Positions 10,918 through 31,627 of a stretch of 64,000 nucleotides of DNA are shown here, in pieces. The position numbers were made by a program, and so were the translations under genes. Position 1 is the stretch's first letter; each line of letters begins with the position of its first letter. The notes under the pieces are model-generated. The model was not told the origin of the DNA. It saw nothing but the letters and a program-made list of their open reading frames with translations, and ran no database searches. Source of the DNA: a virus (lineage: Duplodnaviria > Caudoviricetes); the IMG/VR virus record IMGVR_UViG_3300034349_000079, positions 1 through 64,000 of that record; one strand, given 5' to 3'.

Positions 10918-11115
10918 TTATCTGCCTTTACGTTCACCTAGAACACGTACTACTGCATAGAAGATTGAGCGGTGTAATACTGATTCTATTTCAGGCAAAA
11001 TATGATTTATAGACTCTTCTCTCACAATATCCAGTATAATACTATCTACTTTTCTTGAAAGTTCTTCTCCGCTCGGAGTCATACGATCAATTTCATTATA
11101 AAGTGGGTCTTTCAC
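10918..11115 (-). CDS. hypothetical protein
   Basis: 65-aa ORF in the gene run. Confidence 0.6.
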   Translation of the reverse strand: MKDPLYNEIDRMTPSGEELSRKVDSIILDIVREESINHILPEIESVLHRSIFYAVVRVLGERKGR

Positions 11116-11611
11116 GTTTCTTTATCTCCGCAGTAATTTGTTCTAATCGCACAGGCATATAGTCCCAACAATCTACCCCGATGTCTACTGCTCGTGGATC
11201 ATAGTACTTAGTACCATGTGAATGCCCATGGATATGAGCCCAACCATGGAACTTGTTCGGCCAATCATATATAGGATAATGTGACATAACCAAACCAATG
11301 TTAGAATCGGTTACGATATCTCTTGGATGAATCGAGAAGAACTCTTTTAATTTATTAACATTTCCCATATCGTGATTTCCAAGAATTAATATCTTCTTAC
11401 CTTTTAGCTCATGTAGCATAGAGTAGTCTCTAAAAAAGACATCCCCAAGGTGCCAGATAGTATCATCATCCTCAACAACAGAATTCCATCGTTCAACCAG
11501 TACTTTATTCATCTCCTGCACTGTCTGACATACTCTGTATCTATTGCTAAACTTGATGATGTTTTCGTGACCAAAATGGTGGTCGGATGTATACCAAACG
11601 TTGTTGGACAT
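11096..11611 (-). CDS. calcineurin-like metallophosphoesterase
   Basis: SDHHFGH, HLGD, LGNHD, SHYP, HIHGHSH. Confidence 0.9.
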   Translation of the reverse strand: MSNNVWYTSDHHFGHENIIKFSNRYRVCQTVQEMNKVLVERWNSVVEDDDTIWHLGDVFFRDYSMLHELKGKKILILGNHDMGNVNKLKEFFSIHPRDIVTDSNIGLVMSHYPIYDWPNKFHGWAHIHGHSHGTKYYDPRAVDIGVDCWDYMPVRLEQITAEIKKRERPTL

Positions 11612-11628
11612 TTTAAATACTCTCCTGC

Positions 11629-12327
11629 TCAAGTTCTAGGTTTTAAGACTGGGTTATATGGGCGTAGAAGCTTGCGCTCTATTTCGTGAGCCATTGTTGG
11701 TGTTCGATCCAGTCTGTAGAAATACTTTGTATCATCAGGTTCTTCAGACCATCCAAATTGTTCGTACCAGTCTGACTCTGGTTGCCCAAAGAATTCCCAG
11801 ATAGCTTGATAATTTTCTCTTGTCCAGGAAGTACGAGATGGAAGTAAGTTTCTCGTACAAGCGTGATCTGGGTACTCAGCATTTTTCCATTTTTTGTGTG
11901 TTGCTATTTTACAACCCTTATACAATAGTAGAGCACGGAGGCCAGAATGAAATTCTTCATCCCCCCAAAAAGGAGGATCAATTTCTGGATACTCTGCCTC
12001 CTCCAGTTTTGAGACTATGTCACGCCACTTAAAAAGCGCTTCCTTACGCTTCTTCAGCATCTCAGTTTTGCCACTTACCTTGATAGGACGTATGATTCGT
12101 TCTTCAGATGTGGTGGCTATAAAACGAGCTAATTGTAGTTCGGCGTTAGTCCAGAATTTTGCCATTGTGTGGTATGAATATCCACTTTCTCCATTAGCCC
12201 TTTTGGGATAACATTCACAAAGACTTTTCAAGATAAGTAGACCAGCTACTTCTACTTGATATAAGTGCTTGATACTCAGTGCCTTAGCACTTCTCTCAAA
12301 ATCTGGGAAAGGCATAAAGACGATCAT
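11629..12327 (-). CDS. pyrimidine-dimer DNA glycosylase (DenV / MSMEG_6728-like)
   Basis: FMPFPDFERSAKAL...HTMAKFW...PPFWGDEEFH pattern. Confidence 0.7.
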   Translation of the reverse strand: MIVFMPFPDFERSAKALSIKHLYQVEVAGLLILKSLCECYPKRANGESGYSYHTMAKFWTNAELQLARFIATTSEERIIRPIKVSGKTEMLKKRKEALFKWRDIVSKLEEAEYPEIDPPFWGDEEFHSGLRALLLYKGCKIATHKKWKNAEYPDHACTRNLLPSRTSWTRENYQAIWEFFGQPESDWYEQFGWSEEPDDTKYFYRLDRTPTMAHEIERKLLRPYNPVLKPRT

Positions 12328-13004
12328 CAGAATTTTCTTATGCTAGCTTCGCCATCATTAATCTCAAGAACTTCTCGTTTTCTTGGAAAACAATCGACAT
12401 TGAAGTTATCTGGATAAACTTCCCATACTCCTTGTGAGGTACCAAAAGGACGATAATTAGAATGTCCAAACACTTGTTTGATGCCAGGGACTGGTTTAAA
12501 TTCTTCTGTATCACACCAGAGAATTCCTCCAACAGGAAATAGGCCGCCTCTAGTATAGCCAATTTGTGCGAGGTTTTCGATTGGTGCTTCATCAAGATAT
12601 TTTACTATTTCTTGAAAATTCATATCTTTTTCAGGTAACCAACTTTCGCTGACTCCAGCGTGAGTGACGAGAAAATCATCTACTATAACATACCATCGAA
12701 AATTTCTTAAAATACGTGCCTTCCGTTTGTTTATTTCTTGCTGTGTTTTATGTTCATAACCAGAACATGCATAACGATTATTCAAATACCCATATTCGTG
12801 ATTCGCGATTAAAGCAGTTACATTATCTCTTGTTTCAATAGCTTCTAAAACTAAATCAACGCATTCTATTTGTTCATCTATGTTTTTATCAAAGCTATCT
12901 ACAAAATCAGATACGAATACTGTGGCTTGGTCTTTGTCTTGGAGCAAATCTCTAACATGGCCGACCAACCCATGGATGTCGCCGCATACAATAACGCTAC
13001 TCAT
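12327..13004 (-). CDS. metallophosphoesterase
   Basis: GDIHG, SDFVD, ANHE, THAG, WCD, FGHS. Confidence 0.85.
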   Translation of the reverse strand: MSSVIVCGDIHGLVGHVRDLLQDKDQATVFVSDFVDSFDKNIDEQIECVDLVLEAIETRDNVTALIANHEYGYLNNRYACSGYEHKTQQEINKRKARILRNFRWYVIVDDFLVTHAGVSESWLPEKDMNFQEIVKYLDEAPIENLAQIGYTRGGLFPVGGILWCDTEEFKPVPGIKQVFGHSNYRPFGTSQGVWEVYPDNFNVDCFPRKREVLEINDGEASIRKF

Positions 13005-13422
13005 TTGATGTTTCTCTAAGTGCTAGTTCCAAAATAGCTAGAGCATTCCACGCTGCATGCGCTAAGTGCAATGACCCAGATTCTTTATCATTTGGCCCTT
13101 CAATGAATTGTTTGAGGGTGTGGCGTCCTTGCGCATCGCTATAGCGAGTCATTCCGTCTTGTACGGTTCGCCAACCACCTCGTGTGTATTTATTAGCTCC
13201 ATCTCCTGCAACCTTTGCAACAGCTAACAAGGCTCGTGGAAAACTTTCAAAGACAAGACCAACTGGAGGCTTGTCGTCGTCATCTTTTGCCCCCGGCTGA
13301 TGAAGATTTAGTTTCTTGGTAATTAGAGGGTTTGGATTTGGAGCTGTTAAAACTATCTCAAGTATTTCTCTGAAGGAAGCTTGTGAATCACCATGCCATT
13401 CAAACTCGTTGTGGTCATTCAT
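12997..13422 (-). CDS. dATP/dGTP diphosphohydrolase (DUF5664-like)
   Basis: GAKDDDDKP...GANKY...W...RH...DKESGSLHLAHAAWNAL. Confidence 0.85.
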   Translation of the reverse strand: MNDHNEFEWHGDSQASFREILEIVLTAPNPNPLITKKLNLHQPGAKDDDDKPPVGLVFESFPRALLAVAKVAGDGANKYTRGGWRTVQDGMTRYSDAQGRHTLKQFIEGPNDKESGSLHLAHAAWNALAILELALRETSNE

Positions 13423-14075
13423 TTACGTCTCTTATTTGTTTTTGAACTCATAAATTCATCTATTGGCACGGTAAGAGCTTTTTCTAGGTCCCACCCATAC
13501 TCAAGTCTATTCCATAGGTTTTTGGCAGTTATATTGAACTTATCGGCCAAATCCGCAAGACAATAATCTTGCCCCTCATAACTTAGAATCCTATTAGTTC
13601 TTCTATTTCGTTGCTGAACAATTTTGGTAGCCCAACAACAGTTGTCTTTCGAGTAACCTAGAGAATTATCTTTTCGCTCAAGAGTATGTTTCATCGAAGG
13701 TTTTTCTCCCATATCAGACAGGAAGGTTTCGAAACTAGCAAGCCATTCTTGGCACACAGTTATCCCCCGCCCACCATAATTTTCATAGTGCTTATGACTT
13801 GGATTACTGCATCTGTTTTTCATACAAGACCAAGTAATGTATTCGCTAGTACGACTTCTACCGTGTTTTGTTGCAACACGTTTCATCCTTTCTATGCGAA
13901 GACACCCACAACTTGTAGAAGAACCGTTCATTAAAGAACCAGATTGAACTACTCTTTCAGTCCCGCAAGAACAACGAACTAGCCATCTAGCAGAACCTTT
14001 TGACGTATTTTCTGCTCTAGCAATTACTTCGTTTTCTCCAAACTTATCACCCACCTTTACTTTCAAAGAGCTCAT
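13419..14075 (-). CDS. HNH homing endonuclease
   Basis: WLVRCSCG, SCGC, RCSNP..YGGRGITVC.EW, TLERKDNSLGYSKDNCCWAT. Confidence 0.9.
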   Translation of the reverse strand: MSSLKVKVGDKFGENEVIARAENTSKGSARWLVRCSCGTERVVQSGSLMNGSSTSCGCLRIERMKRVATKHGRSRTSEYITWSCMKNRCSNPSHKHYENYGGRGITVCQEWLASFETFLSDMGEKPSMKHTLERKDNSLGYSKDNCCWATKIVQQRNRRTNRILSYEGQDYCLADLADKFNITAKNLWNRLEYGWDLEKALTVPIDEFMSSKTNKRRK

Positions 14076-14137
14076 TGCTTACTCTTAGGATTAAAGACCC
14101 TAGTATAACATAGAAGGTCTACGGAATAGTAACTATG

Positions 14138-17411: not shown

Positions 17412-17714
17412 TTATACATATTTAAAAAACACTATTTCAGGTAGAAAATAAAGTAGGCTGCTGGAAGAATCACCGATGTGAAGTTTCCACACCTCATATC
17501 GTAGTAGATTTTTCCGTGCAGCACTTCGTTTAGCACCAGCTAATGTGCCATGAATCTTGTGCCCGTCACCAAGTCCTATGTAGTCGCAGAACCAACTAGT
17601 GATTAATCCCGTCGGTACACTGTACTTATAGGTTGGATAATCAAAGATCTTTATTCTGTACCCAATGTCTTGGTGTTTAAGAGTAGGTGCTGTTATTGCA
17701 ATTGTGTTAACCAT
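17412..17714 (-). CDS. hypothetical protein
   Basis: 100-aa ORF; see 16765..17037. Confidence 0.6.
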   Translation of the reverse strand: MVNTIAITAPTLKHQDIGYRIKIFDYPTYKYSVPTGLITSWFCDYIGLGDGHKIHGTLAGAKRSAARKNLLRYEVWKLHIGDSSSSLLYFLPEIVFFKYV

Positions 17715-18738
17715 CGTTTTTCAGTAAGTACTCGTTGTTAATAACCTTAAATGACGTCGCACCATCTGCCGATTTGAATACCAACCCTTCAATTGAAGGC
17801 ATAGAAGGAAATTTTGTCCGGTTAATTAACTCCGGCAAAGCTAGAATTGATTCCATATCTGTAATACCTAATTCAGGCAGTGTAAAATTCAACCCAAGAG
17901 TAGGAACATGGTTCAAAAAATGTGCTTCGCAAAATGCCGTACGTTCAATATGCGGTAAATAACACTGGTTGTCAATATCCCAAATGTCAAAGATGTAAAT
18001 TTGTACATTGAGATAACCTGCTCTATTTCTTTGAACCCCTGGTCCTGCAAGTTCTCCTTGTACTGCAAGATTTCGACCACAGGCTTCTAGTGCCTTAATG
18101 ATCCCTGAATTCTGTGCCGCATGTATGAACGCATTCCCTGAATTTTCGGGATCCATTTTTAGATCTATGTTGTGAGAACAGACTCCAACTACTCCATCTT
18201 TTAAATAGCCTGTTATTGAACTTCCATCAACTTTCAGAGAGATTTCATACTTAGTCTCTTGGTCAAGTAGTACCTCAGGAATATTTTGTATACGCGTTTG
18301 ACTTGTGCGATGTACAAAATATGGAAAATTGCCTTTACCTAAACCCCTCATATTTTCGGGTAGTGCGCGCTCCCACTTAAGCACGCCGAGTAGCTCAGTG
18401 AGGTCCATGCCCTCGACAAATTTGGCATGCGGCCAATCAGGAAGTTTTAGCAGCAGTCCCTGTGATAATTGTCCACGTAAGCGAACTGTACGTAGTCTTT
18501 CACCTTGAACTTCTTCAAAAACCTTTGGAGAATGCCCAGGTTTTGTAAGAAATGGAGCGAGTTCTGTTGGTACCCAACTATCCACCTCAAAATATAGCAC
18601 TAATTCATCGGTCTTAAAATCATCTTTTTTTACAACACACATCCAGCCATCTACTCTGGCGACCTGGATACTATCCGCGCCTTCAATTGGATTAATTTCT
18701 GCGATACGTCGTATTGTTGCTAGTCTTCTCTCAGACAT
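17707..18738 (-). CDS. RNA ligase, Rnl2 / DRB0094 family
   Basis: N-terminal OB domain (LRTVRLRGQLSQGL), KVDGSS, QGELAGPGVQ, EGLVFK, SFKVINNEYLLK. Confidence 0.9.
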   Translation of the reverse strand: MSERRLATIRRIAEINPIEGADSIQVARVDGWMCVVKKDDFKTDELVLYFEVDSWVPTELAPFLTKPGHSPKVFEEVQGERLRTVRLRGQLSQGLLLKLPDWPHAKFVEGMDLTELLGVLKWERALPENMRGLGKGNFPYFVHRTSQTRIQNIPEVLLDQETKYEISLKVDGSSITGYLKDGVVGVCSHNIDLKMDPENSGNAFIHAAQNSGIIKALEACGRNLAVQGELAGPGVQRNRAGYLNVQIYIFDIWDIDNQCYLPHIERTAFCEAHFLNHVPTLGLNFTLPELGITDMESILALPELINRTKFPSMPSIEGLVFKSADGATSFKVINNEYLLKNDG

Positions 18739-24030: not shown

Positions 24031-24101
24031 AAAGCACTCCCAGAATTGAACTGGGTATAACGGATTTGCAATCCGCCGCATTACCGGTTTGCTAAGTGCT
24101 T
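24031..24101 (-). tRNA. trnC: tRNA-Cys(GCA)
   Basis: AAGCACT/AGTGCTT acceptor, GCGGA-TTGCAAA-TCCGT. Confidence 0.9.
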
Positions 24102-24108
24102 ATTACTT

Positions 24109-25005
24109 TCAATGTCCTCTAAACCCTTTCGCTTCTAACGAATATGCGGTAGCATATGATTTAAGACCTTCCGAAGTGCGCTTTGTCTGCATTATCTGGC
24201 TGGTGGCCAAACCTAGTTGAGTGCTCGCTTCGGAGAAAGCGTTGATTCCAACACCAACGTAACCGATATCCCAACCTGCTGCTACTTTTCTAGCGACTAG
24301 TTCCTTGATGGCTTCCTTCGTTGTTTCCTTCGAGGAATTTTCCTCCCCATCGGTCATGATCCTGACCATTACATGGAAGTAGTCTGGGAGGGCCGTAAGC
24401 GCCTTAAAGACGGCATCCAGGAGGGATGTAGATCCGCTAGCATAAACCTGGTTGTTGCTGTACCCGATCGTCAGGGGCTGGACATACTTGAGCTGAACGC
24501 GGTTATATAGCACAGTATAGGCTGCACTAAACGCGATCAATGTAACATAGCACTCACCAGATAGTAGTTTTTGCTCTTCAATGAAGGTGTTAAAGCTGCC
24601 AACGGCGTCGGTTAGTATATTGCCCATTGAACCGGAAATATCCTGAACCCAGATGATATCCGTTAGCAGTGGTCTTGTACCTACTTCAGTCGTTACGCTG
24701 GAGTCATTCTCGTCAATGCGTACATCGTCAACTGATGGGATTAGTTGATCTACAATGACAGGCGGTGGAAGAATTGGTCGGTAGGCTGCACGTAGAACAT
24801 CGTTGATTTCATCGTTGATTTCAATGGTGTTCTTTTGCGGCACCCTCTTAGTGATAGGATTTATCCGTTCTTTATTGAGGAAGTCCTGGAAAAGAAGACC
24901 AGGCGGTGGAGGATCTACCAGCGGATCATCTATGATGATCTCACGGATGTAGGAGTTAGAATTAAGTGGTTGTAGCACTATGTTATCATCCTGTTGTTGT
25001 GGCAC
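24109..25005 (-). CDS. von Willebrand factor A (MIDAS) domain protein
   Basis: DISGSMG, TSLLDA, IMTDGEENSS; low-complexity N-terminal ~115 aa. Confidence 0.85.
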   Translation of the reverse strand: MPQQQDDNIVLQPLNSNSYIREIIIDDPLVDPPPPGLLFQDFLNKERINPITKRVPQKNTIEINDEINDVLRAAYRPILPPPVIVDQLIPSVDDVRIDENDSSVTTEVGTRPLLTDIIWVQDISGSMGNILTDAVGSFNTFIEEQKLLSGECYVTLIAFSAAYTVLYNRVQLKYVQPLTIGYSNNQVYASGSTSLLDAVFKALTALPDYFHVMVRIMTDGEENSSKETTKEAIKELVARKVAAGWDIGYVGVGINAFSEASTQLGLATSQIMQTKRTSEGLKSYATAYSLEAKGFRGH

Positions 25006-25087
25006 AGTGTCTTCGACAAAAGACTGAAGTACTTGCGTTAAGGTTTTGTTGGCAAAACGAAACTAGTTTCTCTTGAAATGCCTATAT

Positions 25088-25387
25088 TTATTGGCTTGAG
25101 TCAGCGGGGTTACCGCCACTCATTATGCCAACTTTGGCTTTACAGCCGAAGTTTATCCAATAGGCGGTGCTACATTCAAGGTTGTCTACTCGTTGTCCAT
25201 TGATGTAGATAGAGCACGATCCCCAACCATTATTGTCAGAGTCATACATCCCTTCCACGACCGAGAGTTGCGGCGTCCTCTTAGTGATAGGATTTATCCG
25301 TTCTTTATTGAAGAAGTCCTGAAAAGTACCACCTACTAGGATCACAGCAGCGAGACCCAGGAGTGCTGGAATGGCATATTCGCGCAT
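25088..25387 (-). CDS. hypothetical protein with N-terminal signal/TM segment
   Basis: hydrophobic N-terminus; shares FQDF.NKERINPITKR.PQ with the vWA gene. Confidence 0.65.
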   Translation of the reverse strand: MREYAIPALLGLAAVILVGGTFQDFFNKERINPITKRTPQLSVVEGMYDSDNNGWGSCSIYINGQRVDNLECSTAYWINFGCKAKVGIMSGGNPADSSQ

Positions 25388-25403
25388 ATTATGGCATCTT
25401 GTT

Positions 25404-25433
25404 AAAAAGAGGCCCGTAGGAGATCCTACGGGC
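25404..25433 (-). terminator. rho-independent terminator
   Basis: GCCCGTAGG-ATCT-CCTACGGGC followed by CTCTTTTT on minus strand. Confidence 0.75.
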
Positions 25434-25442
25434 TAAGGGTGA

Positions 25443-25895
25443 CTACACTACGTAGTCTTCGTAGGTGAGGCCTAGTTTAGTAGCGATCTGCTTCAGAACT
25501 ACTGTCTCAGTGGCGTCTACCTCACCGTCACTGGCGGCGATGTCATATGCAATTAGGAAAACATCTTCACAATCAGCGACAGAATCATCTCCTTCGGCGT
25601 TACGCAAATCGCCGATCTCACGCAGCAACGCGGCTTTACCGGCCATCGGACTCGCTTCGATCTTAGTGGCATAGGCAATCACGATCTTGGAAACGTCGGA
25701 TGCACTAAAGGCACCCTTGATCTTGTTGTGGTTGGCCAGGGTGATTTGGCCATTCTTCAACTCATCTTTGCTGATGCCACCGGAAGCCGCAGCCACTAGG
25801 ATAAAGGCAGCAGCGATGGCTTCGAACACGTCCTTGTTAACTTTCTTGGCCTGGCCAGATTTGAGTTGAGTAGTGAAACGGTCTAGAAGACCCAT
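25443..25895 (-). CDS. terB: TerB-family tellurite-resistance protein
   Basis: LVAAASGGISKDE...IAASDGEVDATETVVLKQIATKLGL; start MGLLDRF. Confidence 0.85.
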   Translation of the reverse strand: MGLLDRFTTQLKSGQAKKVNKDVFEAIAAAFILVAAASGGISKDELKNGQITLANHNKIKGAFSASDVSKIVIAYATKIEASPMAGKAALLREIGDLRNAEGDDSVADCEDVFLIAYDIAASDGEVDATETVVLKQIATKLGLTYEDYVV

Positions 25896-26034
25896 AGTTT
25901 TATGCTCGTGGTTGGTTAAAAGGGGTTGTGCCAGTCTTTCCTGGCTGCCAAGCATGGACTTGTTTAGCCTCGCTACTATGCTGGGCCCAACGAGGAGGTT
26001 ACTTCTCGTAATTAAATGAGACGTAGAACTGGCC

Positions 26035-26365: not shown

Positions 26366-26374
26366 TCTCCAGGA

Positions 26375-27004: not shown

Positions 27005-27065
27005 ATTTATCTCCCAAAAAGAGCATTTTAACATGCCTAGGCCCTTAGTGCACGGTTCCTCGCAG

Positions 27066-28673
27066 TTAAATTTTCTCCGCGATGAAATCGGACACAATCT
27101 GAGGAAGGCTCGCATCAGCCCCAACGCAGTCCAGCATTCCGGAGTCTTTTGGATCAGCGATTGTGAAATTAGTCGCAGTCAAGCCCATGACTACTAACTT
27201 CACGTCGTGGCCTACTTGCTGGCGGTATTCGCGCAAAGCTTGTACTGGCTGAATACGGCCGGCGTAAGTCTCTGAATCCGTCGCGATAATTACAGTCTCA
27301 AAGTTCCGTTGCTTCTGTTTAGCCCAAACCACGGGGAGACTGCAATCAGTTCCGCCGAACGGTAATCGATTAGTTTGGCGAATTATATCGTCTAAGCGTT
27401 GTTTAGGGCTGATGTTGAGCGGAATAAAAGACGTCGAAAAGGCCATGAACTCGTAGTCTTCTTCCAGACGCGCGACTGCCATAGCAAAGGCAACAGAGGC
27501 AGTTCTTGCAGTCATATGCGTTCCTGCGACCATGCTACCGTCCATCGAGCCGCTGACATCCATGGCAAACAGGATTTTCTTTCCTGTCGGAGCAACGTTT
27601 TTGAAAGATAGGTAGAAAGCCGCATCCAGAGCATCTACTATCTTTTGAACCGGAGTCCAAGTTAAAGAACCTTTTACACCGCGCCCTGCCTGATAGGTTG
27701 TAAGAGCCAGAAGGATTGAGAAAGGATGTACACGCGCTTTTTGTAAAGCTTCTGCATCCTGTAGTTTGGAGATCACCAACTTTGTTGCTTCGCTATTTGG
27801 TTGAAGTAAGCCAATATTCGTCATCTTCGATAAGTTTCTAAGCGCCGCATGGAGTGGCATCTTTTGGAGCAAGGCTTCCCAGACGGAGACGCTATTGAGC
27901 CAGGTATTCGGAACCATCTCTCTTGTGAGCCCAAAATCATTTATCAGCGCGATATTTGGCTTATCTGGGCTAGCCATTGCCTTGATATGAGCTTGGACAG
28001 TTTGTGGAAGCATTGACTCATCCGCAACTACTTTTCCAACCGCCCACTTGAATAGATCATTCATTTCAGCATCTTTTGGGACTGGATGCGCCATACGTAG
28101 TGCGTCTTTTGTGGACCAGTCGTTACGAGTGCGATACTTGGTGAATTGATAGCCGAGTTGATCTGGGGTCTTGGATGTATACCACGAGGCAACAGTTTCG
28201 CGTAAAACACGTCCCCAGCCTCTAAGTGGATTCACATAGCTGATGAACTCAAACAAATGGCTCTGAGTCCGTACTACAGAAGAAAATACTTTCATGGCTT
28301 CATGACGTACAGGCAGAGTTCCATGCGAGAAGGCCAAGGCCAAAGCAAACAAGGTTGGACTTACTTTAGGACCCCTGCCTTCCACCGAGATTTGCTTGAG
28401 TAGCTGAATAGCTTCAACACCGATGTCTGAAGGAGCGGAGAAAATATCTACGGCTACTTTAGCGTTGTCCTTAGTCAGTTTCTGTTCTGTTGCGTAGTAT
28501 GTACCTCCGGAACTTCCAAGAATAAGAAAACGTTCGAACTGTTTAAGTGGAGAAATTGTAAAGGTCATGCCATGGGCATTGTTAAGCGACATTTCCCGTT
28601 CTCTACCAGGAATGACCTGCGTTTGTGGAGTTGTAGAATATGAGCGAGCGAAGTTTGCGTACGGACCGGACAT
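27066..28673 (-). CDS. rsr: Ro60/Rsr TROVE-domain RNA-binding protein
   Basis: RFLILGSSGGTYY, GWGRVLR, KYRTRNDWSTKDALRMAHP, MPLHAALRNL, vWA DVSGSM, GGTDCSLP, TDSET. Confidence 0.95.
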   Translation of the reverse strand: MSGPYANFARSYSTTPQTQVIPGREREMSLNNAHGMTFTISPLKQFERFLILGSSGGTYYATEQKLTKDNAKVAVDIFSAPSDIGVEAIQLLKQISVEGRGPKVSPTLFALALAFSHGTLPVRHEAMKVFSSVVRTQSHLFEFISYVNPLRGWGRVLRETVASWYTSKTPDQLGYQFTKYRTRNDWSTKDALRMAHPVPKDAEMNDLFKWAVGKVVADESMLPQTVQAHIKAMASPDKPNIALINDFGLTREMVPNTWLNSVSVWEALLQKMPLHAALRNLSKMTNIGLLQPNSEATKLVISKLQDAEALQKARVHPFSILLALTTYQAGRGVKGSLTWTPVQKIVDALDAAFYLSFKNVAPTGKKILFAMDVSGSMDGSMVAGTHMTARTASVAFAMAVARLEEDYEFMAFSTSFIPLNISPKQRLDDIIRQTNRLPFGGTDCSLPVVWAKQKQRNFETVIIATDSETYAGRIQPVQALREYRQQVGHDVKLVVMGLTATNFTIADPKDSGMLDCVGADASLPQIVSDFIAEKI

Positions 28674-28712
28674 AATAACACCTTAACGTTGGTTGGTTGG
28701 TTGGTTGAAAGA

Positions 28713-28773
28713 AGGGCTAATTAATTATCAAACGGTTTATCATTACAGGTGGTAACGTTTGAAAATCGGCCCT
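28713..28773 (-). ncRNA. Y RNA-like element Y1
   Basis: AGGGCCGA-stem-TTACC...TTAGCCCT. Confidence 0.75.
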
Positions 28774-28783
28774 AAAAAAGAGA

Positions 28784-28858
28784 AGGCTAAAAGCGTCAAA
28801 GAGGATTTTCATAGTCTGACGACTAAGTCATGGAAGATAATTCTCTGACTACGGCCCT
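28784..28858 (-). ncRNA. Y RNA-like element Y2
   Basis: AGGGCCGT-N10-TTATC...TTAGCCTT. Confidence 0.75.
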
Positions 28859-28865
28859 AAAACGG

Positions 28866-28939
28866 GGTGAGTGACGGGCTTCGGACCCGTATTTCTAGGA
28901 ATCACAGTCCTAGGCTTTACCAATTAAGCTACACTCAAC
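28866..28939 (-). tRNA. trnH: tRNA-His(GTG)
   Basis: TAGGA-CTGTGAT-TCCTA, G-1/C73; atypical TCCGAAG T-loop. Confidence 0.85.
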
Positions 28940-28948
28940 ATTTGGAGC

Positions 28949-29063
28949 GGGCAAAGCGCTGTGTTTGAGAGTTCAAGGTCTACAAGTATCTCGGTTGTAG
29001 CCTAGTCTTTAATTCGAATGGTTAGTTCGGATGTTGTCAAGATAATCAAACACTATCGGCCCC
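28949..29063 (-). ncRNA. Y RNA-like element Y3 (long form, two internal hairpins)
   Basis: GGGGCCGA-TAGTGTTTGA-TTATC...TCAAACAC..TTTGCCC. Confidence 0.7.
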
Positions 29064-29145
29064 AGAAACATTTGCATAGTTTATTCGGCAAGCTCCTACT
29101 ATGCTAGGAGTTTCACGGCCAGTCCTAGTTAGAACTGTCCTTGCC

Positions 29146-29457
29146 TTATTTTGGTAAAACGCTCGCAGCAAGCTGGTTGATGCTGCGTAAGAAAAGCAAA
29201 CGCGTTCTTGGATAAGTCCACTTTAGCCAATGTCTCTCGTTTGTTGGATCTCCTATCTCTTCAGACAGAATCATCCGCCATATTTGTGCTGGAGTGTACT
29301 TATGAATGTAGTTTTGATCCCGCGCTGCTTGGGCACTTACTACATGTCCGTGCATAATAGCTCTACGAATAGCCTTACGAACGGGGTCACTTTTATTATA
29401 TCGAGAATGATACAAATGATCTTTTGACATTGGCCTCTGATGAGAGCACCTACTCAT
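29146..29457 (-). CDS. hypothetical protein
   Basis: GAGGT RBS before MSRCSHQ. Confidence 0.6.
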   Translation of the reverse strand: MSRCSHQRPMSKDHLYHSRYNKSDPVRKAIRRAIMHGHVVSAQAARDQNYIHKYTPAQIWRMILSEEIGDPTNERHWLKWTYPRTRLLFLRSINQLAASVLPK

Positions 29458-29837
29458 AGTAGACCTCTGATTATTTCCTACATTTTCAACTAGCTTGCGG
29501 AGTATATTCGCTAGAAGCAACAAGCCGCCCCCGTGGTCCTAAAATTGAGTACACGAGCCTCCCGCCTGGCATTTTAGTAGGTTAAAACCCCCTGAAAAAA
29601 TTCGTCACCTGTGGGGTTATTTATCCTAGCATATTCTCCCACCGGTCTTCTTACAAGCCGAGGTGTGGCAAACGGATAAAGGGCGTTTTGTAAGACAAGC
29701 CCTTTAACAACTCTCTCACCTAAATGATCAATTTCTTGAGCGATGATGACAAAACGGTACTACCATAGAGATTTTTATTTTAATCCCCGGCCCTAAAGAC
29801 CGTTGGCTTTTCTTATTAGACGATGGTAGCATTAGTT

Positions 29838-29912
29838 TGGCGACCCTGCGGGGTTTCGAACCCCGGTAATGTGATAGACAATCACATGTCCTAGCCTTTA
29901 GACGACAGAGCC
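29838..29912 (-). tRNA. trnD: tRNA-Asp(GTC)
   Basis: TGTGA-TTGTCTA-TCACA, G73, CCA. Confidence 0.9.
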
Positions 29913-29921
29913 ATATTTTGT

Positions 29922-29981
29922 AGGGCTAAAGATAGTTTTGCTGTTTGATCGCCTAATGATAAAGCAAAACTGGACGGCCCT
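29922..29981 (-). ncRNA. Y RNA-like element Y4
   Basis: AGGGCCGT-AGTTTTGCT-TTATC...AGCAAAACT-ATCTTTAGCCCT. Confidence 0.75.
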
Positions 29982-29986
29982 GAAAT

Positions 29987-30116
29987 TGGTGGAGTAGCCT
30001 CGATTTGCACGAGGATCGTTCATTTTACAGATGAGAATACATCACTATCGTACCGGGTTTGGACGGTCAAGATGTTGCAATGCACTTTTAACGCTCTACT
30101 ATTAAGCTACTACTCC
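29987..30116 (-). ncRNA. tRNA-Tyr(GTA)-like RNA with a 56-nt Y-module insertion in the anticodon stem
   Basis: complete acceptor, D and T arms and CCA; removing the insert gives GTTCAT-CTGTAAA-ATGAAC. Confidence 0.75.
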
Positions 30117-30122
30117 AGAAAT

Positions 30123-30187
30123 TGGCGCGAAAATAAGGGATAATCTACCGGCCGTGTTTGGCTAAAGATGTAGGTCCCGTTTTCGCA
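30123..30187 (-). ncRNA. circularly permuted Y-like RNA with CCA end (P1)
   Basis: TGCGAAAA/TTTTCGCG-CCA outer stem; inner ATCTTTAGCC-loop-GGCCG...TTATC. Confidence 0.65.
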
Positions 30188-30192
30188 TTGTT

Positions 30193-30259
30193 TGGTGCGA
30201 AATAAATAAACTCCACCGGCCAGTGGTTATAGGTGGGATCCTAGTCTAAATATTCCGCA
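30193..30259 (-). ncRNA. circularly permuted Y-like RNA with CCA end (P2)
   Basis: TGCGGAATA/TATTTCGCA-CCA; inner TAACC-ACT-GGCCG. Confidence 0.55.
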
Positions 30260-30264
30260 TTGTT

Positions 30265-30340
30265 TGGTAGCGAGGGCGCGATTCGGACGCGCGATCTTAG
30301 GTTTATGAGACCCATGAGATAACCACTTCTCCACCTCGCT
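30265..30340 (-). tRNA. trnM: tRNA-Met(CAT), initiator-like body
   Basis: TGGGT-CTCATAA-ACCTA, CCA. Confidence 0.85.
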
Positions 30341-30473
30341 AAATTTTAAGTGTCTCTAGATCAATATTTCTATTTCTATCTTACGCCCGCGAGCGGTAGA
30401 TGGCTACTTATAGAACAAGACCTTGTTAATTCCCTAGAGACCGATCAAGGCTATTCCGTTTTACTCATATATT

Positions 30474-30525
30474 CGGTGGACATCAACGGGGTTGAACCGT
30501 TCACTACCGTCGTAGCTTAATGTCC
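30474..30525 (-). ncRNA. 52-nt tRNA minihelix-like RNA
   Basis: GGACATT/GATGTCC-A-CCG, AACGG-TTCAACC-CCGTT T-arm, one 4-bp hairpin between them. Confidence 0.55.
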
Positions 30526-30534
30526 GTAATTAGT

Positions 30535-30656
30535 TGGGACTGAGAGGTTTCGAACCTCTGACATGCTGTTGTGATAATACACCAAATCCGGACTATTTGT
30601 CAAGTTTGGATGGCGCATGTTTTTGACGGCTGCTCTACCAGCTGAGCTACAGTCCC
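30535..30656 (-). ncRNA. tRNA-like RNA with a 47-nt Y-module insertion in the anticodon stem
   Basis: GGGACTG/CAGTCCC, GCTC/GAGC D-arm, AGAGG/CCTCT T-arm; insert contains CTTGAC/GTCCGG helix. Confidence 0.7.
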
Positions 30657-30667
30657 ATTTAAAAAGG

Positions 30668-30817
30668 TGAGGGGAGCAGGTTTCGAAGCTGCAATTTCAC
30701 TATTAAGTGAACCGGTTCCTATTATTATGTAAGTCTATCGACCCATTTGTAATGGGTAAATATATCGATATACAATTTTATATATACCGGTGCGTCTACC
30801 AATTTCGCCATCCCCTC
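30668..30817 (-). ncRNA. tRNA-Leu-like RNA with a ~62-nt Y-module insertion in the anticodon loop
   Basis: Leu-type D-arm and variable arm, CCGGT/ACCGG stem; insert contains TTTACCC/GGGTCGA bulged helix. Confidence 0.7.
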
Positions 30818-30822
30818 ATAAC

Positions 30823-30898
30823 TGGCTCCGAAAAGAGGTTTCGAACCTCTGACAAACTGCTTAACAGGCAGCTACTCTACCAACTGAGTTATATCGGA
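30823..30898 (-). tRNA. trnN: tRNA-Asn(GTT)
   Basis: GCTGC-CTGTTAA-GCAGT, G73, CCA. Confidence 0.9.
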
Positions 30899-30916
30899 TT
30901 AGTGCAGAGGATTATA

Positions 30917-30945
30917 ATAATAATCTAAATCCTCGTGAAAGTCAA
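30917..30945 (-). promoter_or_regulatory. sigma70-type promoter driving the tRNA/Y-RNA cluster
   Basis: TTGACT-17 nt-TATTAT upstream of tRNA-Asn. Confidence 0.6.
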
Positions 30946-31043
30946 ATGCTTTCTCCTGTATGTTGTCGATCAAAGCGAAAAGTTCTTCGTCTGAAATGTC
31001 ATCGTTAAATAGTTCGTTGTCTATCATTTTTATACACGTTGTG

Positions 31044-31118
31044 TGGTCGGCGCCGAGGGAATCGAACCCCCTTAGTCATGGTCCCAAACCATGCGATCAG
31101 CCAATGAACCAGGCACCG
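31044..31118 (-). tRNA. trnP: tRNA-Pro(TGG)
   Basis: CATGG-TTTGGGA-CCATG, CCA. Confidence 0.9.
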
Positions 31119-31125
31119 AGATGGA

Positions 31126-31185
31126 AGGGCTAGTTAGTTATGCTGGGGTTGTATCTTAGAAGGATAACCCATCAAGAACGGCCCT
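31126..31185 (-). ncRNA. Y RNA-like element Y5
   Basis: AGGGCCGT-N10-TTATC...CTAGCCCT. Confidence 0.7.
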
Positions 31186-31385
31186 AAAATCAAAACGCGC
31201 TTACATGGAGACGTCTAGAATTCTCCTAGTGGGTTACACCACGTTTTTCTGTAAAGTAAGCGCCTCATCATCCTAGAATAGTGTGGTTAATGTTGCTTTT
31301 ACACCACAAGGTTTTATTGTAGCAACCCTTCAGCTAGTCATTAATATTACCGTTCGTCAGACTAGCAGTTGAGAACGAGTATTCT

Positions 31386-31461
31386 TGGAGCGGACACGGA
31401 AAGAATCAAACTCCGGTCATTAGCTTGGAAGGCTAAGGTAATATCACTATACGATATCCGC
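31386..31461 (-). tRNA. trnG: tRNA-Gly(TCC)
   Basis: TTAGC-CTTCCAA-GCTAA, U73, CCA; bulged T-stem. Confidence 0.85.
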
Positions 31462-31471
31462 AAAAAACGGT

Positions 31472-31531
31472 TGGGATAATTGATTTATCATGCGAGTGTC
31501 AGTAATTTAGGTAACGCACGACTTCGTCCCA
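31472..31531 (-). ncRNA. Y RNA-like element Y6
   Basis: TGGGACGA-N9-TTACC...TTATCCCA (compensatory C-G to A-U change). Confidence 0.7.
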
Positions 31532-31537
31532 GAAACT

Positions 31538-31627
31538 TGGTGTATGGTAGTTGATTCGAACAACTGTGGGCCATCAAGACCAACGGATTTACAGTCCGTC
31601 CCCGTCAACCAGCTTGGGTAACCATAC
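31538..31627 (-). tRNA. trnY: tRNA-Tyr(GTA)
   Basis: ACGGA-CTGTAAA-TCCGT, long variable arm, CCA. Confidence 0.9.

What the first reader, a model, noticed from the sequence alone, without database searches (positions are those of the whole stretch)
11096..31627. Putative phage RNA repair / quality-control system centred on Ro60
The window encodes Ro60/Rsr, a large Y-RNA battery, an Rnl2/DRB0094 RNA ligase, two metallophosphoesterases (possible end-healing), TerB, a vWA protein, duplicated tRNAs (canonical plus chimeric Tyr and Leu) and tRNA mimics. In bacteria, Rsr and Y RNAs are established partners of RtcB-type RNA repair and of PNPase. Inference: the phage counters host anticodon nucleases or toxin RNases by capturing broken RNAs on Ro60 and ligating them, using Y-tRNA chimeras as tethers, gates or decoys.
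Basis: inference. Interest (0 to 1): 0.8.

Follow-up and report, generated by a model that had tools for sequence, protein, structure and literature searches.

The report
Phage Ro60 with Y-RNA/tRNA island
An uncultured phage carries a Ro60 RNA-binding protein next to about a dozen partner RNA genes, some built into whole tRNA bodies. This pairing recurs in many viral genomes, but the nearby RNA ligase and phosphoesterases are a separate cassette, not parts of one Ro60 repair machine.

Summary
Nearly every listed part is real:
- a full-length Ro60 (27066-28673, minus strand);
- a 3-kb co-oriented RNA island upstream of it, holding seven tRNAs plus a Gly-like one, six linear Y-RNA-like genes, two small CCA-ended permuted Y hairpins and three tRNA-framed Y RNAs (Tyr-GUA and Leu-UAG bodies among them);
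- an NgrRnl/DraRnl-type RNA ligase (Rnl5, not Rnl2);
- two metallophosphoesterases, TerB and a YegL-like vWA protein.

The Ro60 plus Y-RNA unit is strongly supported. The signature GGGCCG(A/G)..GGUUAYC lies beside Ro60 on its own strand in 56 of 80 viral loci (172 hits against 12 on the opposite strand). tRNA-framed Y RNAs recur in about 19 loci with compensatory base changes.

The wider "repair system" is not supported:
- The ligase lies within 10 kb of Ro60 in one other lineage among the 80 loci.
- TROVE occurs in 1 of 50 ligase-bearing records.
- The cultured-phage host genera listed for the two genes share only Microbacterium.
- No kinase, RtcB or RtcA was found.
- The ligase's conserved partner is the aq_1665-like phosphoesterase (23 of 80 loci, seven adjacent).

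Phage Ro60 as a repair or counter-defence platform is already published. The acceptor-open ("unpermuted YrlA") architecture and the size of the battery I did not find described.

The parts
27066..28673 (-). Ro60/Rsr orthologue (TROVE ring plus C-terminal vWA with a DxSxS MIDAS motif)
   Evidence: Pfam hits. PDB Ro60/Rsr matches at E 1e-105 to 1e-114. D372, S374 and S376 are invariant in alignment A1.
31472..31531 (-). Linear Y RNA 1: GGGACGAAG..GUUACC..UUAUCCC. It starts 7 nt after the tRNA-Tyr 3' end.
   Evidence: Signature hit; fold; sequence.
31126..31185 (-). Linear Y RNA 2: AGGGCCGUU..GGUUAUC..CUAGCCCU. It ends about 7 nt before tRNA-Pro.
29922..29981 (-). Linear Y RNA 3. It ends about 9 nt before tRNA-Asp.
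   Evidence: (z -3.4).
28949..29063 (-). Linear Y RNA 4 (long form): GGGGCCGAUAG..UUAUC..UUUGCCC. It ends about 10 nt before tRNA-His.
28783..28858 (-). Linear Y RNA 5. It starts 5 nt after the tRNA-His 3' end; a G-U change keeps the basal helix paired.
28713..28773 (-). Linear Y RNA 6. It ends about 40 nt before the Ro60 start codon.
   Evidence: (z -2.8).
29987..30116 (-). tRNA-framed Y RNA ('Tyr'). It has an open 7-bp acceptor stem, A73-CCA, D and T arms, and a 56-nt Ro-site arm (CUUGACC-loop-GGUACGA) inserted between nt 28 and 29. An intact CUGUAAA anticodon loop is retained.
   Evidence: Covariance model R1 scores 82.5 bits. The minimum-energy fold gives all five arms. With the insert deleted, ARAGORN calls tRNA-Tyr(GUA).
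30534..30656 (-). tRNA-framed Y RNA 2. The Ro site CUUGAC-AAAUA-GUC[C]GG sits on a long arm at the anticodon position, with UUAUCAC in the loop remnant. Its T arm is identical to that of the neighbouring tRNA-Asn.
   Evidence: Rfam tRNA 46.9 bits over 122 nt. R1 84.9 bits. Fold z -4.1.
30667..30817 (-). tRNA-Leu(UAG)-type body with a 62-nt hairpin (UUUACCC..GGGUCGAUAG) inserted after U33.
   Evidence: ARAGORN with introns allowed; R1 27.8 bits.
30123..30259 (-). Two small RNAs, each a terminal stem ending in CCA that encloses a loop-closed Ro-type helix (..UUUAGCC-loop-GGCCGG..AUUAUC).
   Evidence: Folds with z -3.7 and -3.0; sequence. No comparative support was obtained.
29758..29830 (-). Aberrant tRNA-shaped RNA with AGGGCCGG as the 3' strand of its 'anticodon' stem.
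   Evidence: Rfam tRNA 25.9 bits, below the gathering score. Fold z -3.1.
28864..31627 (-). Canonical tRNAs interleaved with the Y RNAs: Tyr 31538-31627, Gly(UCC)-like 31395-31461, Pro 31044-31118, Asn 30823-30898, Met 30265-30340, Asp 29838-29912, His 28864-28938.
17707..18738 (-). Rnl5-type (NgrRnl/DraRnl) RNA ligase. It belongs to a separate cassette, not to the Ro60 module.
11096..11632 (-). aq_1665-like metallophosphoesterase, the conserved partner of the Rnl5 ligase.
   Evidence: It occurs in 23 of 80 ligase loci, always on the ligase strand, and within 12-39 nt of it in 7 loci.
24109..25955 (-). TerB (25443-25955), a 99-aa ORF and a YegL/TerY-like vWA protein (24109-25005). A strong terminator lies at 25412-25433, between TerB and the 99-aa ORF. 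No link to Ro60 was found beyond proximity.
   Evidence: TerB occurs in 0 of 80 Ro60 loci and the vWA protein in 5 of 80.

Best explanation
The window holds two independent things.

(1) A Ro60 / Y-RNA module embedded in a phage tRNA island. Twelve candidate Ro60 ligands are encoded co-directionally just upstream of Ro60, interleaved with tRNAs.
- Inferred: they are made from polycistronic precursors. Host tRNA-processing enzymes (RNase P, RNase Z or E) cut out the tRNAs, and those same cuts define the Y-RNA ends, because most linear Y RNAs start or end about 5-10 nt from a tRNA end.
- Shown at sequence level only: each RNA offers Ro60 a GG(G/U)C[C]G(A/G) / UU(A/G)NCC bulged helix.
- Shown at sequence level only: the tRNA-framed ones are circular permutations of bacterial YrlA. 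The Y arm leaves the anticodon stem at the same place, but the acceptor stem is open (one ends in CCA) and the Ro helix is closed by a loop.
- Most likely function (inferred from D. radiodurans and Salmonella RYPER, Thermus phage phiLo and coliphage Bas63 gp130): the RNPs tether or sequester host RNA-decay or tRNA-binding factors such as PNPase. That would protect phage RNAs or blunt a host defence.

(2) An Rnl5 ligase plus aq_1665-type phosphoesterase cassette inside the replication module. It probably heals 3' ends and seals nicks that have an RNA 3'-OH strand, and it evolves independently of Ro60.

TerB, the vWA protein, the second phosphoesterase, MazZ and the HNH genes are bystanders.
For: Ro60 identity.

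Y-RNA signature:
- Six hits lie in 2.8 kb, against about 3 expected per strand in 83.6 kb.
- The same signature lies within 3 kb of Ro60 in 56 of 80 viral loci, 172 hits on the Ro60 strand against 12 on the opposite strand. A looser form is found in 71 of 81 loci.
- The closest relative, L003, has three GGGCCGAA..GGUUAUC..CUUGCCC RNAs plus one tRNA-framed Y RNA directly upstream of Ro60.

tRNA-framed family:
- In a 16-sequence alignment, 22 of 25 consensus pairs show compensatory changes.
- The covariance model finds 25 strong hits, all within about 1.3 kb of Ro60, two of them in the window.
- 10 of 10 manually parsed type-A members keep a 7-nt loop with U33, R37 and A38.
- Mycobacteriophage Catera YrlA has the same 28/29 junction but a closed acceptor stem.

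Ligase and phosphoesterase cassette.

Independence from Ro60.

Literature: phage Ro60 with Yrl RNAs binds and attenuates host PNPase (PMC12135203). Bas63 gp130, a Ro60-like protein upstream of tRNA genes, counters the Ppl defence system (10.1101/2024.10.10.617714).
Against: - No expression, processing or binding data exist. The phage is uncultured and its host unknown.
- The window's linear Y RNAs carry GGGCCG(U/A) rather than the canonical GNCGAA, and a C-A mismatch instead of a clean C bulge. Several folds are not better than shuffled sequence.
- No Rfam Y-RNA hit.
- When the ligase and Ro60 do co-occur they are usually 4-12 kb apart (window; L031/L032; G051; A3Wally). Complete independence is therefore not proven.
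- The PNPase or counter-defence role is borrowed from distant relatives (Ro60 identity to cultured-phage homologues is at most 43%).
- The record is only 64% complete.
Confidence: 0.6

Rival explanations
1. First reader's model. Ro60, the Y RNAs, the Rnl5 ligase and the phosphoesterases form one repair machine: Ro60 captures RNAs broken by host anticodon nucleases or toxin RNases, the phosphoesterase heals the ends and the ligase reseals them.
For: - All parts lie on one strand within 20 kb.
- Bacterial rsr-yrlBA-rtcBA operons link Ro60 to an RNA ligase (PMC7790460).
- Where a PF09414 ligase and Ro60 co-occur they are mostly 4-12 kb apart.
- In Microbacterium phage A3Wally both lie in the same tRNA island.
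- In L031/L032, Ro60, a DNA ligase, an AAA_28 P-loop protein and an Rnl5 ligase lie within 6 kb.
Against: - The Rnl5 ligase lies within 10 kb of Ro60 in one lineage among 80 loci.
- TROVE occurs in 1 of 50 ligase-bearing records.
- The cultured-phage host genera listed for the two genes share only Microbacterium.
- PF09414 occurs in only 4 of 19 near-complete Ro60 phage records.
- No 5' kinase, RtcB or RtcA was found.
- From my own knowledge of Shuman-lab biochemistry: NgrRnl-type ligases seal duplex nicks rather than broken anticodon loops.
- The ligase sits among PolA, primase-helicase and nuclease genes.
Confidence: 0.12
2. Decoy or shield model without repair. The tRNA-framed Y RNAs are recognised as tRNAs (open acceptor, CCA, intact anticodon loops). 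They bring Ro60 onto the anticodon arm, where they act either as nuclease-resistant baits for host anticodon nucleases and tRNA-sensing defences, or as Ro60-shielded spare tRNAs.
For: - Anticodon-loop hallmarks are kept in 10 of 10 manually parsed type-A members, while the triplet varies.
- The window's chimeras duplicate the Tyr(GUA) and Leu(UAG) specificities also present as canonical genes.
- YrlA has been proposed as a competitive inhibitor of an anticodon nuclease (PMC7790460).
- Bas63 gp130 is a proven counter-defence gene (10.1101/2024.10.10.617714).
Against: - The loops are biased to CUUG(U/A)AA, seen in 8 of 18 automated parses, which suggests a conserved motif rather than free anticodons.
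- Type-B members lack an anticodon loop altogether.
- The Tyr chimera lacks the long variable arm of bacterial tRNA-Tyr.
- There is no evidence of charging or nuclease binding.
- The only tested phage Ro60-like counter-defence targets Ppl, for which that preprint proposes DNA degradation.
Confidence: 0.18
3. Housekeeping quality control. Ro60 scavenges misfolded phage tRNA and ncRNA precursors from the very dense RNA island, and the Y RNAs act only as gates that regulate access to the Ro60 cavity.
For: - Established role of Ro60 in binding misfolded ncRNAs and of Y RNA as a gate, as summarised in 10.1101/312249.
- Ro60 lies beside tRNA genes in 27 of 80 loci and inside large arrays in about 8. 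It also does so in Gordonia phage Forza and A3Wally.
Against: - 53 of 80 Ro60 loci have no tRNA within 10 kb, yet most still carry Y RNAs.
- This reading does not explain why up to a dozen different Y RNAs, or tRNA-framed forms, are needed.
Confidence: 0.08
4. The 'Y RNAs' are not Ro60 ligands. They are spacer hairpins or processing signals of the tRNA operon, and Ro60 is an unrelated passenger gene.
For: - No Rfam hit.
- Weak thermodynamic z-scores for some hairpins.
- All of them lie between tRNAs.
Against: - The same signature tracks Ro60 in loci that have no tRNAs at all, and is strand-specific.
- It matches the published GNCGAA/YUAY features of YrlA (PMC4201824).
- It is absent from the window's second tRNA cluster at 39.2-39.6 kb.
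Confidence: 0.02

Closest known systems
YrlA / Y RNAs next to Rsr in bacteria and mycobacteriophages (Chen et al. 2014, PMC4201824; Wang et al. 2018, 10.1101/312249)
   Same: - Encoded beside Ro60 on the same strand.
- 5' GNCG(A/G) motif followed about 10 nt later by YUAY(C).
- A tRNA-like D arm, T arm and acceptor stem.
- The Y arm joins the tRNA body at the anticodon stem. I re-derived this in phage Catera.
   Different: - In the tRNA-framed RNAs here the acceptor stem is open, one with A73-CCA, and the Ro helix is closed by a loop. This is the circular permutation of YrlA.
- There are about 12 candidate ligands here, against the 3 signature-bearing RNAs I saw upstream of Catera Ro.
- The Ro helix keeps both strands, as in D. 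radiodurans and metazoan Y RNAs.
Thermus phage phiLo phiRo60 with Yrl1/Yrl2 (Hu et al. 2025, PMC12135203)
   Same: A phage-encoded Ro60 with Y-like RNAs encoded immediately upstream. That study shows binding to the Yrl RNAs and to host PNPase, with attenuation of the nuclease.
   Different: phiRo60 matches the window protein only weakly, if the 'TROVE domain-containing protein' entries 9L5Y/9KOP (E 1e-4) are that structure, which I did not verify. phiLo has only two Yrl RNAs, defined by a CGAA motif, and no tRNA-framed forms are described.
Coliphage Bas63 gp130 (PhageMaP preprint, 10.1101/2024.10.10.617714)
   Same: A Ro60-like protein directly upstream of a run of tRNA genes. The authors suspect that some of those 'tRNAs' are Y RNAs. 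It has an experimentally shown counter-defence role.
   Different: The similarity of gp130 to Ro60 is structural only. The defence it counters (Ppl, ATPase plus PHP) is proposed there to degrade DNA. No Y RNAs have been defined.
Salmonella rsr-yrlBA-rtcBA RNA repair operon (Hughes et al. 2020, PMC7790460)
   Same: Ro60, Y RNAs and an RNA ligase in one genome, connected to tRNA damage.
   Different: In Salmonella the ligase is RtcB (3'-P/5'-OH chemistry), accompanied by the RtcA cyclase and the RtcR sensor, all in one operon. Here RtcB and RtcA are absent. The ligase is ATP-dependent Rnl5, lies 8 kb away in a replication module, and is not co-inherited with Ro60.
Naegleria gruberi / Deinococcus radiodurans RNA ligases (Rnl5 clade; PDB 5COT)
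   Same: Full-length collinear match: N-terminal OB fold plus adenylyltransferase domain, with the KxDG motif.
   Different: The phage copy is paired with an aq_1665-like metallophosphoesterase in 23 of 80 viral loci. I do not know of a published description of that pairing.
T4 Pnkp plus Rnl1 healing-and-sealing pathway against PrrC (own knowledge)
   Same: The concept of a phage countering an anticodon nuclease by end-healing and ligation, with phage tRNAs as backup.
   Different: No kinase was found. No Rnl1 was found either, but that search was uninformative because its control rang nowhere. The ligase here belongs to a nick-sealing clade.

Membership tests
Ro60/Rsr (TROVE) proteins | TROVE HEAT-repeat ring domain followed by a vWA domain, full length | tested here: met
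   PF05731 plus PF25045. Residues 15-532 align to human and Xenopus Ro60 and D. radiodurans Rsr at E 1e-105 to 1e-114.
Ro60/Rsr (TROVE) proteins | MIDAS motif DxSxS in the vWA domain | tested here: met
   D372, S374 and S376 are invariant across 16 homologues including the window protein.
Ro60/Rsr (TROVE) proteins | Binds Y RNA on the outer surface and misfolded RNA in the central cavity | not testable with these tools
   Needs EMSA, CLIP or a structure.
Y RNAs | Encoded adjacent to Ro60 on the same strand | tested here: met
   All 12 candidates lie 40-2860 nt upstream on the minus strand. The same arrangement is seen in 56-71 of 80 viral loci.
Y RNAs | Stem formed by the 5' and 3' ends that carries the conserved Ro-binding helix (GGUC[C]GA/UUGACC type, or GNCGAA in bacteria) | tested here: met
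   The window has GGG(C/A)CG(A/U) paired to UU(A/G)(G/U)CCC, with C-A in place of the bulged C. L003 has the canonical GGGC[C]GAA/CUUGCCC. The match to the consensus is partial in the window copies.
Y RNAs | Second helix and loop that vary in sequence but stay paired | tested here: met
   Helix 2 differs in every paralogue yet remains complementary, for example AGUUUUGCU/AGCAAAACU, UCAAACG/CGUUUGA, GUGUUUGA/UCAAACAC, UCGUGCG/CGCAUGA.
Y RNAs | Match to a curated Rfam Y-RNA model | tested here: not met
   No hit at E<=5 in 22600-32300. None at gathering score in five related loci.
YrlA subfamily | tRNA-like module with D arm, T arm and acceptor stem joined to the Ro-binding stem at the anticodon-stem position | tested here: met
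   Alignment A5 and the R1 model: acceptor, D and T stems with compensatory changes. The 28/29 junction is shared with Catera YrlA.
YrlA subfamily | RNA termini in the Ro-binding stem and acceptor stem closed by a loop, with no free CCA | tested here: not met
   In the window's three chimeras and about 25 relatives the acceptor stem is open and the Ro helix is loop-closed. One (29987-30116) ends in ACCA. They work like YrlA but are a permuted variant, not members as defined.
Rnl5 (DraRnl/NgrRnl) RNA ligases | N-terminal OB fold, adenylyltransferase domain with a KxDG lysine, and no C-terminal Rnl1/Rnl2-type domain | tested here: met
   PF21189 plus PF09414. 343 aa aligned over residues 2-341 to NgrRnl residues 3-337, with KVDGSS against KLDGSS.
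rsr-yrl-rtcBA type RNA repair operon | RtcB ligase and RtcA cyclase co-encoded with Ro60 and Y RNAs | tested here: not met
   No PF01139 or PF01137 match in the 83.6-kb record. The record is 64% complete.
Healing-and-sealing RNA repair (Pnkp plus ATP-dependent ligase) | 5'-kinase, 3'-phosphatase or cyclic phosphodiesterase, and ligase, co-inherited | tested here: inconclusive
   The ligase and a metallophosphoesterase are co-inherited (23 of 80 loci). No AAA_33 kinase was found. The phosphoesterase's substrate is unknown.

The most novel reading that the evidence does not exclude
The acceptor-open, tRNA-framed Y RNAs are genuine substrates of the tRNA machinery: cut by RNase P and Z, CCA-matured, perhaps charged. 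They carry Ro60 on an extra arm beside an intact anticodon loop. If so, phages would deploy 'Ro60-armed tRNAs' as baits or shields against anticodon-directed host defences. These RNAs would also be the unpermuted ancestors from which bacterial YrlA arose, by closing the acceptor stem and opening the Y arm. In this lineage the Rnl5 ligase and phosphoesterase cassette might additionally reseal the nicked RNAs.
Probability: 0.15. Interest if true: 0.85.

Novelty: new variant of a known kind. Interest (0 to 1): 0.55.

Why it matters
What Ro60 and Y RNAs do in bacteria and phages is still largely open. Only three systems carry experimental data: D. radiodurans and Salmonella RYPER, Thermus phage phiLo, and coliphage Bas63 gp130.

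This window and its about 80 viral relatives add three things:
- Multi-copy Y-RNA arrays beside phage Ro60 are the rule rather than the exception.
- A large, previously unmodelled class of Ro60 partners is a complete tRNA with a Ro-binding arm growing out of the anticodon stem.
- The bacterial YrlA "V arm" corresponds to the anticodon stem-loop.

That yields a concrete evolutionary series (tRNA, then Y-armed tRNA, then permuted YrlA). It also yields testable ideas about which tRNA-binding host factors Ro60 is brought to.

The analysis also guards against over-reading gene proximity. The ligase and phosphoesterase form a separate conserved cassette that deserves its own biochemical test.

Tried and rejected
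I could not fetch the 131.6-kb sister contig of this phage, nor the 61.3-kb JGI contig set. The JGI set appears to carry both a 51%-identical Ro60 (P0007) and a 49%-identical ligase (P0135), since both report 10 contigs with a longest of 61349. The listing of cluster members gave no accessions.
- Single-protein scans of viral contigs with the window Ro60 and with P0007 found nothing.
- The metagenome scan gave no relative closer than L003.
- megablast of the RNA island against cultured phages found no match.
- A thymidylate-synthase-anchored control set for the background frequency of RNA ligases yielded only 5 loci and was abandoned. The background rate of PF09414 in size-matched phages therefore remains unmeasured.
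- Rfam at a permissive threshold returned no Y-RNA family.
- The sigma-70 promoter and terminator scan was no richer than shuffles, apart from one strong terminator after TerB.
- PurZ was sought because of the MazZ-like gene and is absent.
- The Rnl1 (PF09511) search was uninformative because its control rang nowhere.
- MAFFT could not align the Ro hairpins of the chimeras in structural register. I relied on a 16-sequence alignment with RNAalifold and a covariance model instead.
- My automated type-A parser requires complementarity, so it cannot itself prove the split anticodon stem. It also missed the window's Tyr chimera because of its odd T loop.
- I considered introns as an explanation for the inserts and rejected it. 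They are 45-75 nt long, carry the Ro signature, and mostly lie at 28/29 rather than in the anticodon loop.

Full report
CONTEXT. The window is the first 64 kb of an 83.6-kb IMG/VR virus record estimated 64% complete. It has about 40-50% G+C and no close match among cultured phages. All genes between 9 and 34 kb lie on the minus strand.

CHECK OF THE OBSERVATION: PROTEINS.
- Ro60 is unambiguous. The ORF at 27066-28673 has TROVE plus the Ro60-type vWA domain. It aligns over nearly its whole length with human and Xenopus Ro60 and D. radiodurans Rsr (E 1e-105 to 1e-114). It keeps the DxSxS MIDAS residues, which are invariant among 16 homologues.
- The ligase at 17707-18738 has the PHA02142 OB fold plus the RNA_ligase domain. 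It is collinear with Naegleria gruberi RNA ligase (E 2e-69; KVDGSS motif I). That places it in the DraRnl/NgrRnl clade, usually called Rnl5, not Rnl2.
- Two metallophosphoesterases exist: 12327-13004 (Metallophos) and 11096-11632 (phrog_547; Aquifex aq_1665 structure 1XM7).
- TerB is at 25443-25955.
Pfam missed it, but ESM features and the Pfam labels of its homologues (PF00092, PF13519, 'YegL') agree.
- The rest of 11-22.6 kb is a replication and nucleotide-metabolism module: family-A DNA polymerase, DUF5906 primase-helicase, a weak PD-(D/E)XK hit, MazG-like, MazZ-like dGTP diphosphohydrolase and an HNH endonuclease. A small DNA ligase and thymidylate synthase lie further along.

CHECK OF THE OBSERVATION: THE RNA ISLAND. 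ARAGORN and Rfam find seven tRNAs plus a Gly-like one between 28.86 and 31.63 kb. Reading the minus strand shows six hairpins of one design:
- 5' (U)UAGGG(C/A)CG(A/U), then
- a 7-9-bp helix whose sequence differs in every copy but stays complementary, then
- UUA(U/C)C at a fixed distance (22-23 nt from the first G in five copies, 20 nt in the sixth), then
- a variable loop, the return strand, and UU(A/G)(G/U)CCC.

A strict regular expression for the 5' half hits eight times on the minus strand of the whole 83.6 kb. Six of those hits fall in 28751-31529, and Markov-shuffled sequence gives about three hits per strand. Most copies start or end about 5-10 nt from a tRNA end. No Rfam Y-RNA model matches.

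ARE THEY Y RNAS? COMPARATIVE EVIDENCE. I collected 80 viral contigs that encode Ro60 homologues of 40-50% identity.
- The closest, L003, shares the adjacent primase-helicase. Immediately upstream of its Ro60 it carries three RNAs reading GGGCCGAA(G/C)..GGUUAUCA..CUUGCCC. This is the textbook bulged Ro helix (GGGC[C]GA over UUGCCC) together with the bacterial GNCGAA and YUAY features described for YrlA (PMC4201824).
- Across all loci the heptamer GG(G/U)CCG(A/U) is about five times denser in the 500 nt upstream of Ro60 on the Ro60 strand than on the other strand (38 against 7 hits).
- The strict 22-nt signature occurs 172 times within 3 kb of Ro60 on its strand and 12 times on the opposite strand. 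It is present in 56 of 80 loci, 33 loci have three or more copies, and the maximum is eight.
- A looser form is present in 71 of 81 loci.

The window's hairpins are therefore members of a large, Ro60-linked, strand-specific RNA family. Arrays of several copies are common in viral genomes, and the window sits at the upper end.

THE tRNA-Y CHIMERAS. Rfam's tRNA model matches a 122-nt element at 30535-30656 and a 128-nt element upstream of Ro60 in L003. ARAGORN with long 'introns' allowed finds such elements next to Ro60 in many loci.
- A 16-sequence alignment gives a consensus with acceptor, D and T stems, an inner helix and a terminal hairpin. Of its 25 pairs, 22 show compensatory changes.
- A covariance model built from that alignment returns 25 strong hits (more than 54 bits, at least 97 nt) in about 19 distinct loci. 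All lie within about 1.3 kb of Ro60. Ordinary tRNAs score 30-50 bits.
- The window contributes 30534-30656 (84.9 bits) and 29989-30116 (82.5 bits), with 30667-30817 weaker.
- In every case the extra arm ends in YUUG(A/C/U)CC, a loop, then GG(G/U)(C/A)CG(A/G), followed by a helix and GGUUAYC. This is the Ro helix with its two strands in reversed order, joined by a loop.

- In ten manually parsed members the arm is inserted between nucleotides 28 and 29 of an otherwise intact anticodon stem. It is followed by a 7-nt loop with U33, a purine at 37 and A38.
- The triplets are GCA, CAU, GAU, UCG, UAU, UGU, UGA and GUA.
- The window's 29987-30116 folds by energy alone into acceptor, D arm, Y arm, anticodon hairpin and T arm, and ends in ACCA.
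- Deleting the inserts in silico gives ARAGORN calls of tRNA-Tyr(GUA) and tRNA-Leu(UAG). They are not recent copies of the canonical genes (57-62% identity).
- Other members, including 30534-30656 and L003, have the arm in place of the loop.
- Caveat: loops of the form CUUG(U/A)AA are over-represented (8 of 18 automated parses), so the loop may be a conserved motif rather than a free anticodon.

RELATION TO KNOWN YrlA. Upstream of the Ro gene of mycobacteriophage Catera I find two linear Y RNAs and a classical YrlA. That YrlA shows the same 28/29 junction and an anticodon-like hairpin, which the literature calls the 'V' arm. Its termini, however, are in the Ro stem and its acceptor stem is closed.
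- Wang et al. describe YrlA as resembling a circularly permuted tRNA lacking a free CCA end (10.1101/312249).
- The RNAs here are thus the unpermuted counterpart: the same architecture with tRNA-type ends.
- I found no description of this form in the held literature.
- The PhageMaP preprint does remark that some 'tRNA genes' next to Bas63 gp130 may be Y RNAs.

IS THERE ONE Ro60-CENTRED REPAIR SYSTEM? Evidence against:
- tblastn of every ORF of the region against the 80 Ro60 loci (10 kb either side) finds no ligase, TerB, Metallophos or MazZ homologue. Only the primase (1 locus), the aq_1665-like phosphoesterase (3 loci) and the vWA protein (5 loci) recur.
- A family HMM of the ligase finds it near Ro60 only in L031/L032. 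There Ro60, a DNA ligase, an AAA_28 P-loop protein and an Rnl5 ligase lie within 6 kb.
- In whole records, PF09414 is present in 12 of 50 Ro60-bearing contigs and in 4 of 19 that are at least 90% complete.
- Conversely, TROVE passes its cut-off in 1 of 50 records chosen for the ligase. That one is a divergent 458-aa protein about 9 kb from the ligase, with no Y signature or tRNAs upstream.
- Among cultured phages, Ro60 occurs in 381 records (Mycobacterium, Streptomyces, Gordonia, Microbacterium and others). The ligase occurs in 333 (Pseudomonas, Aeromonas, Erwinia, cyanophages and others).
- The only genus listed for both is Microbacterium, with at most three records. Independence would predict about 2.5 shared records.
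- No RtcB, RtcA or AAA_33 kinase is found in the record.

Evidence that keeps the idea alive:
- When both genes are present they are usually 4-12 kb apart: the window, L031/L032, G051, A3Wally and several PF09414 ORFs.
- In A3Wally the ligase sits inside the tRNA island that ends at Ro60.

I read this as shared residence in the early RNA and DNA-metabolism region, not as a dedicated system, but I could not measure a size-matched background.

WHAT THE LIGASE DOES BELONG TO. Of all window ORFs, only the 11096-11632 phosphoesterase recurs near the ligase. It is present in 23 of 80 ligase loci and always on the ligase strand. In seven loci it begins 12-39 nt after the ligase stop. This is a conserved two-gene cassette. 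In the window it has been separated by about 6 kb of polymerase, HNH and nucleotide-metabolism genes. By analogy with metallophosphoesterase end-healing modules such as Clostridium thermocellum Pnkp (own knowledge), it may heal 3' ends for nick sealing. Its substrate, whether RNA repair or ribonucleotide-containing DNA nicks, is untested.

TerB AND vWA. TerB is followed by a strong intrinsic terminator (25433-25412) and may be co-transcribed with Ro60, but it is absent from all other Ro60 loci. The neighbouring YegL/TerY-like vWA protein suggests a Ter-type pair (own knowledge of ter operons), unrelated to RNA repair.

MECHANISM.
- Shown: gene identities, the conserved RNA signatures and their linkage to Ro60, and covariation in the tRNA-framed family.
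- Inferred: co-transcription with the tRNAs and release by tRNA-processing enzymes; Ro60 binding to the bulged helix.
- Inferred from relatives: tethering or sequestering of host PNPase (PMC12135203) or another tRNA-binding factor, with a counter-defence pay-off (10.1101/2024.10.10.617714).
- The decoy or shield variant for anticodon nucleases (PMC7790460) is a live rival at about 0.18.
- The integrated repair machine is at about 0.12.

VERDICT. Ro60 with Y RNAs in phages, and the notion that it serves RNA repair or counter-defence, are known (PMC4201824, PMC7824862, PMC12135203). What I did not find described is the acceptor-open tRNA-framed architecture, widespread in uncultured viruses, and the size of the battery. 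I class this as a new variant of a known kind and set interest at 0.55. Other notes from this scan on the same genome cover the individual RNAs separately.

Noticed in passing
window 26035-26365 (-): Five or six tandem units of about 60 nt, reading CCTTCG-N(9-11)-GCGCGAAGTAAAATAA, lie between the HNH gene downstream of Ro60 and TerB. They are hairpin-forming with variable loops.
   Followed up: no
window 12997-13422 (-): MazZ-like dATP/dGTP diphosphohydrolase N-terminal domain (PF18909, E 2.5e-25). The family is known from 2-aminoadenine (Z-base) phages, but no PurZ/adenylosuccinate-synthetase homologue is found in the 83.6 kb held.
   Followed up: partly
window 13419-14075 and 26558-27124 (-): Two paralogous HNH homing-endonuclease genes (phrog_374). 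The second overlaps the last 59 nt of Ro60 as an ORF and separates Ro60 from the repeat array and TerB.
   Followed up: no
window 30480-30530, 31200-31394, 30345-30480, 29530-29757 (-): Unassigned non-coding stretches inside the RNA island. At 30480-30530 lies a mini tRNA-like hairpin (GGACAU..T-arm-like AACGGUUCAACCCCGUU..AUGUCC-ACC). More small RNAs may be present.
   Followed up: no
window 31395-31461 (-): Non-canonical tRNA-Gly(UCC)-like gene ending in UCCA. Rfam detects it (32.9 bits); ARAGORN does not.
   Followed up: no
L031 9000-16700 (= L032; a 146-kb record listed as 100% complete): An independent phage lineage with at least five Y-type signatures including a tRNA-framed one, followed by Ro60, a DNA ligase, an AAA_28 P-loop protein and an Rnl5-type RNA ligase, all within 7 kb. 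This is the best candidate anywhere for a real Ro60-ligase-kinase operon.
   Followed up: partly
L251 12138-12562 (Microbacterium phage A3Wally, record 104137-104561): Three 118-145-nt hits to the tRNA-framed Y-RNA model (up to 41 bits). They lie in a stretch annotated only with tiny hypothetical ORFs, 2.5 kb upstream of the Ro-like gene. This cultured phage also has the Rnl5 ligase embedded in its tRNA island.
   Followed up: partly
L250 2560-2730 (Mycobacterium phage Catera): The 'V' arm of the classical YrlA is an anticodon-like hairpin (CUC-AUUGCAA-GAG). It is flanked by a split 27-28/42-43 stem, so YrlA contains a complete anticodon arm.
   Followed up: partly
L249 (G051:52000-59086): A divergent 458-aa TROVE-like protein about 9 kb upstream of an Rnl5 ligase, in the viral record whose ligase is most similar to the window's. 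No tRNAs or Y signature lie upstream of it.
   Followed up: partly
whole record: The protein database reports the window's Ro60, ligase and vWA proteins on a second contig of 131,589 nt. A longer, possibly complete, assembly of this phage therefore exists, but it could not be fetched.
   Followed up: no
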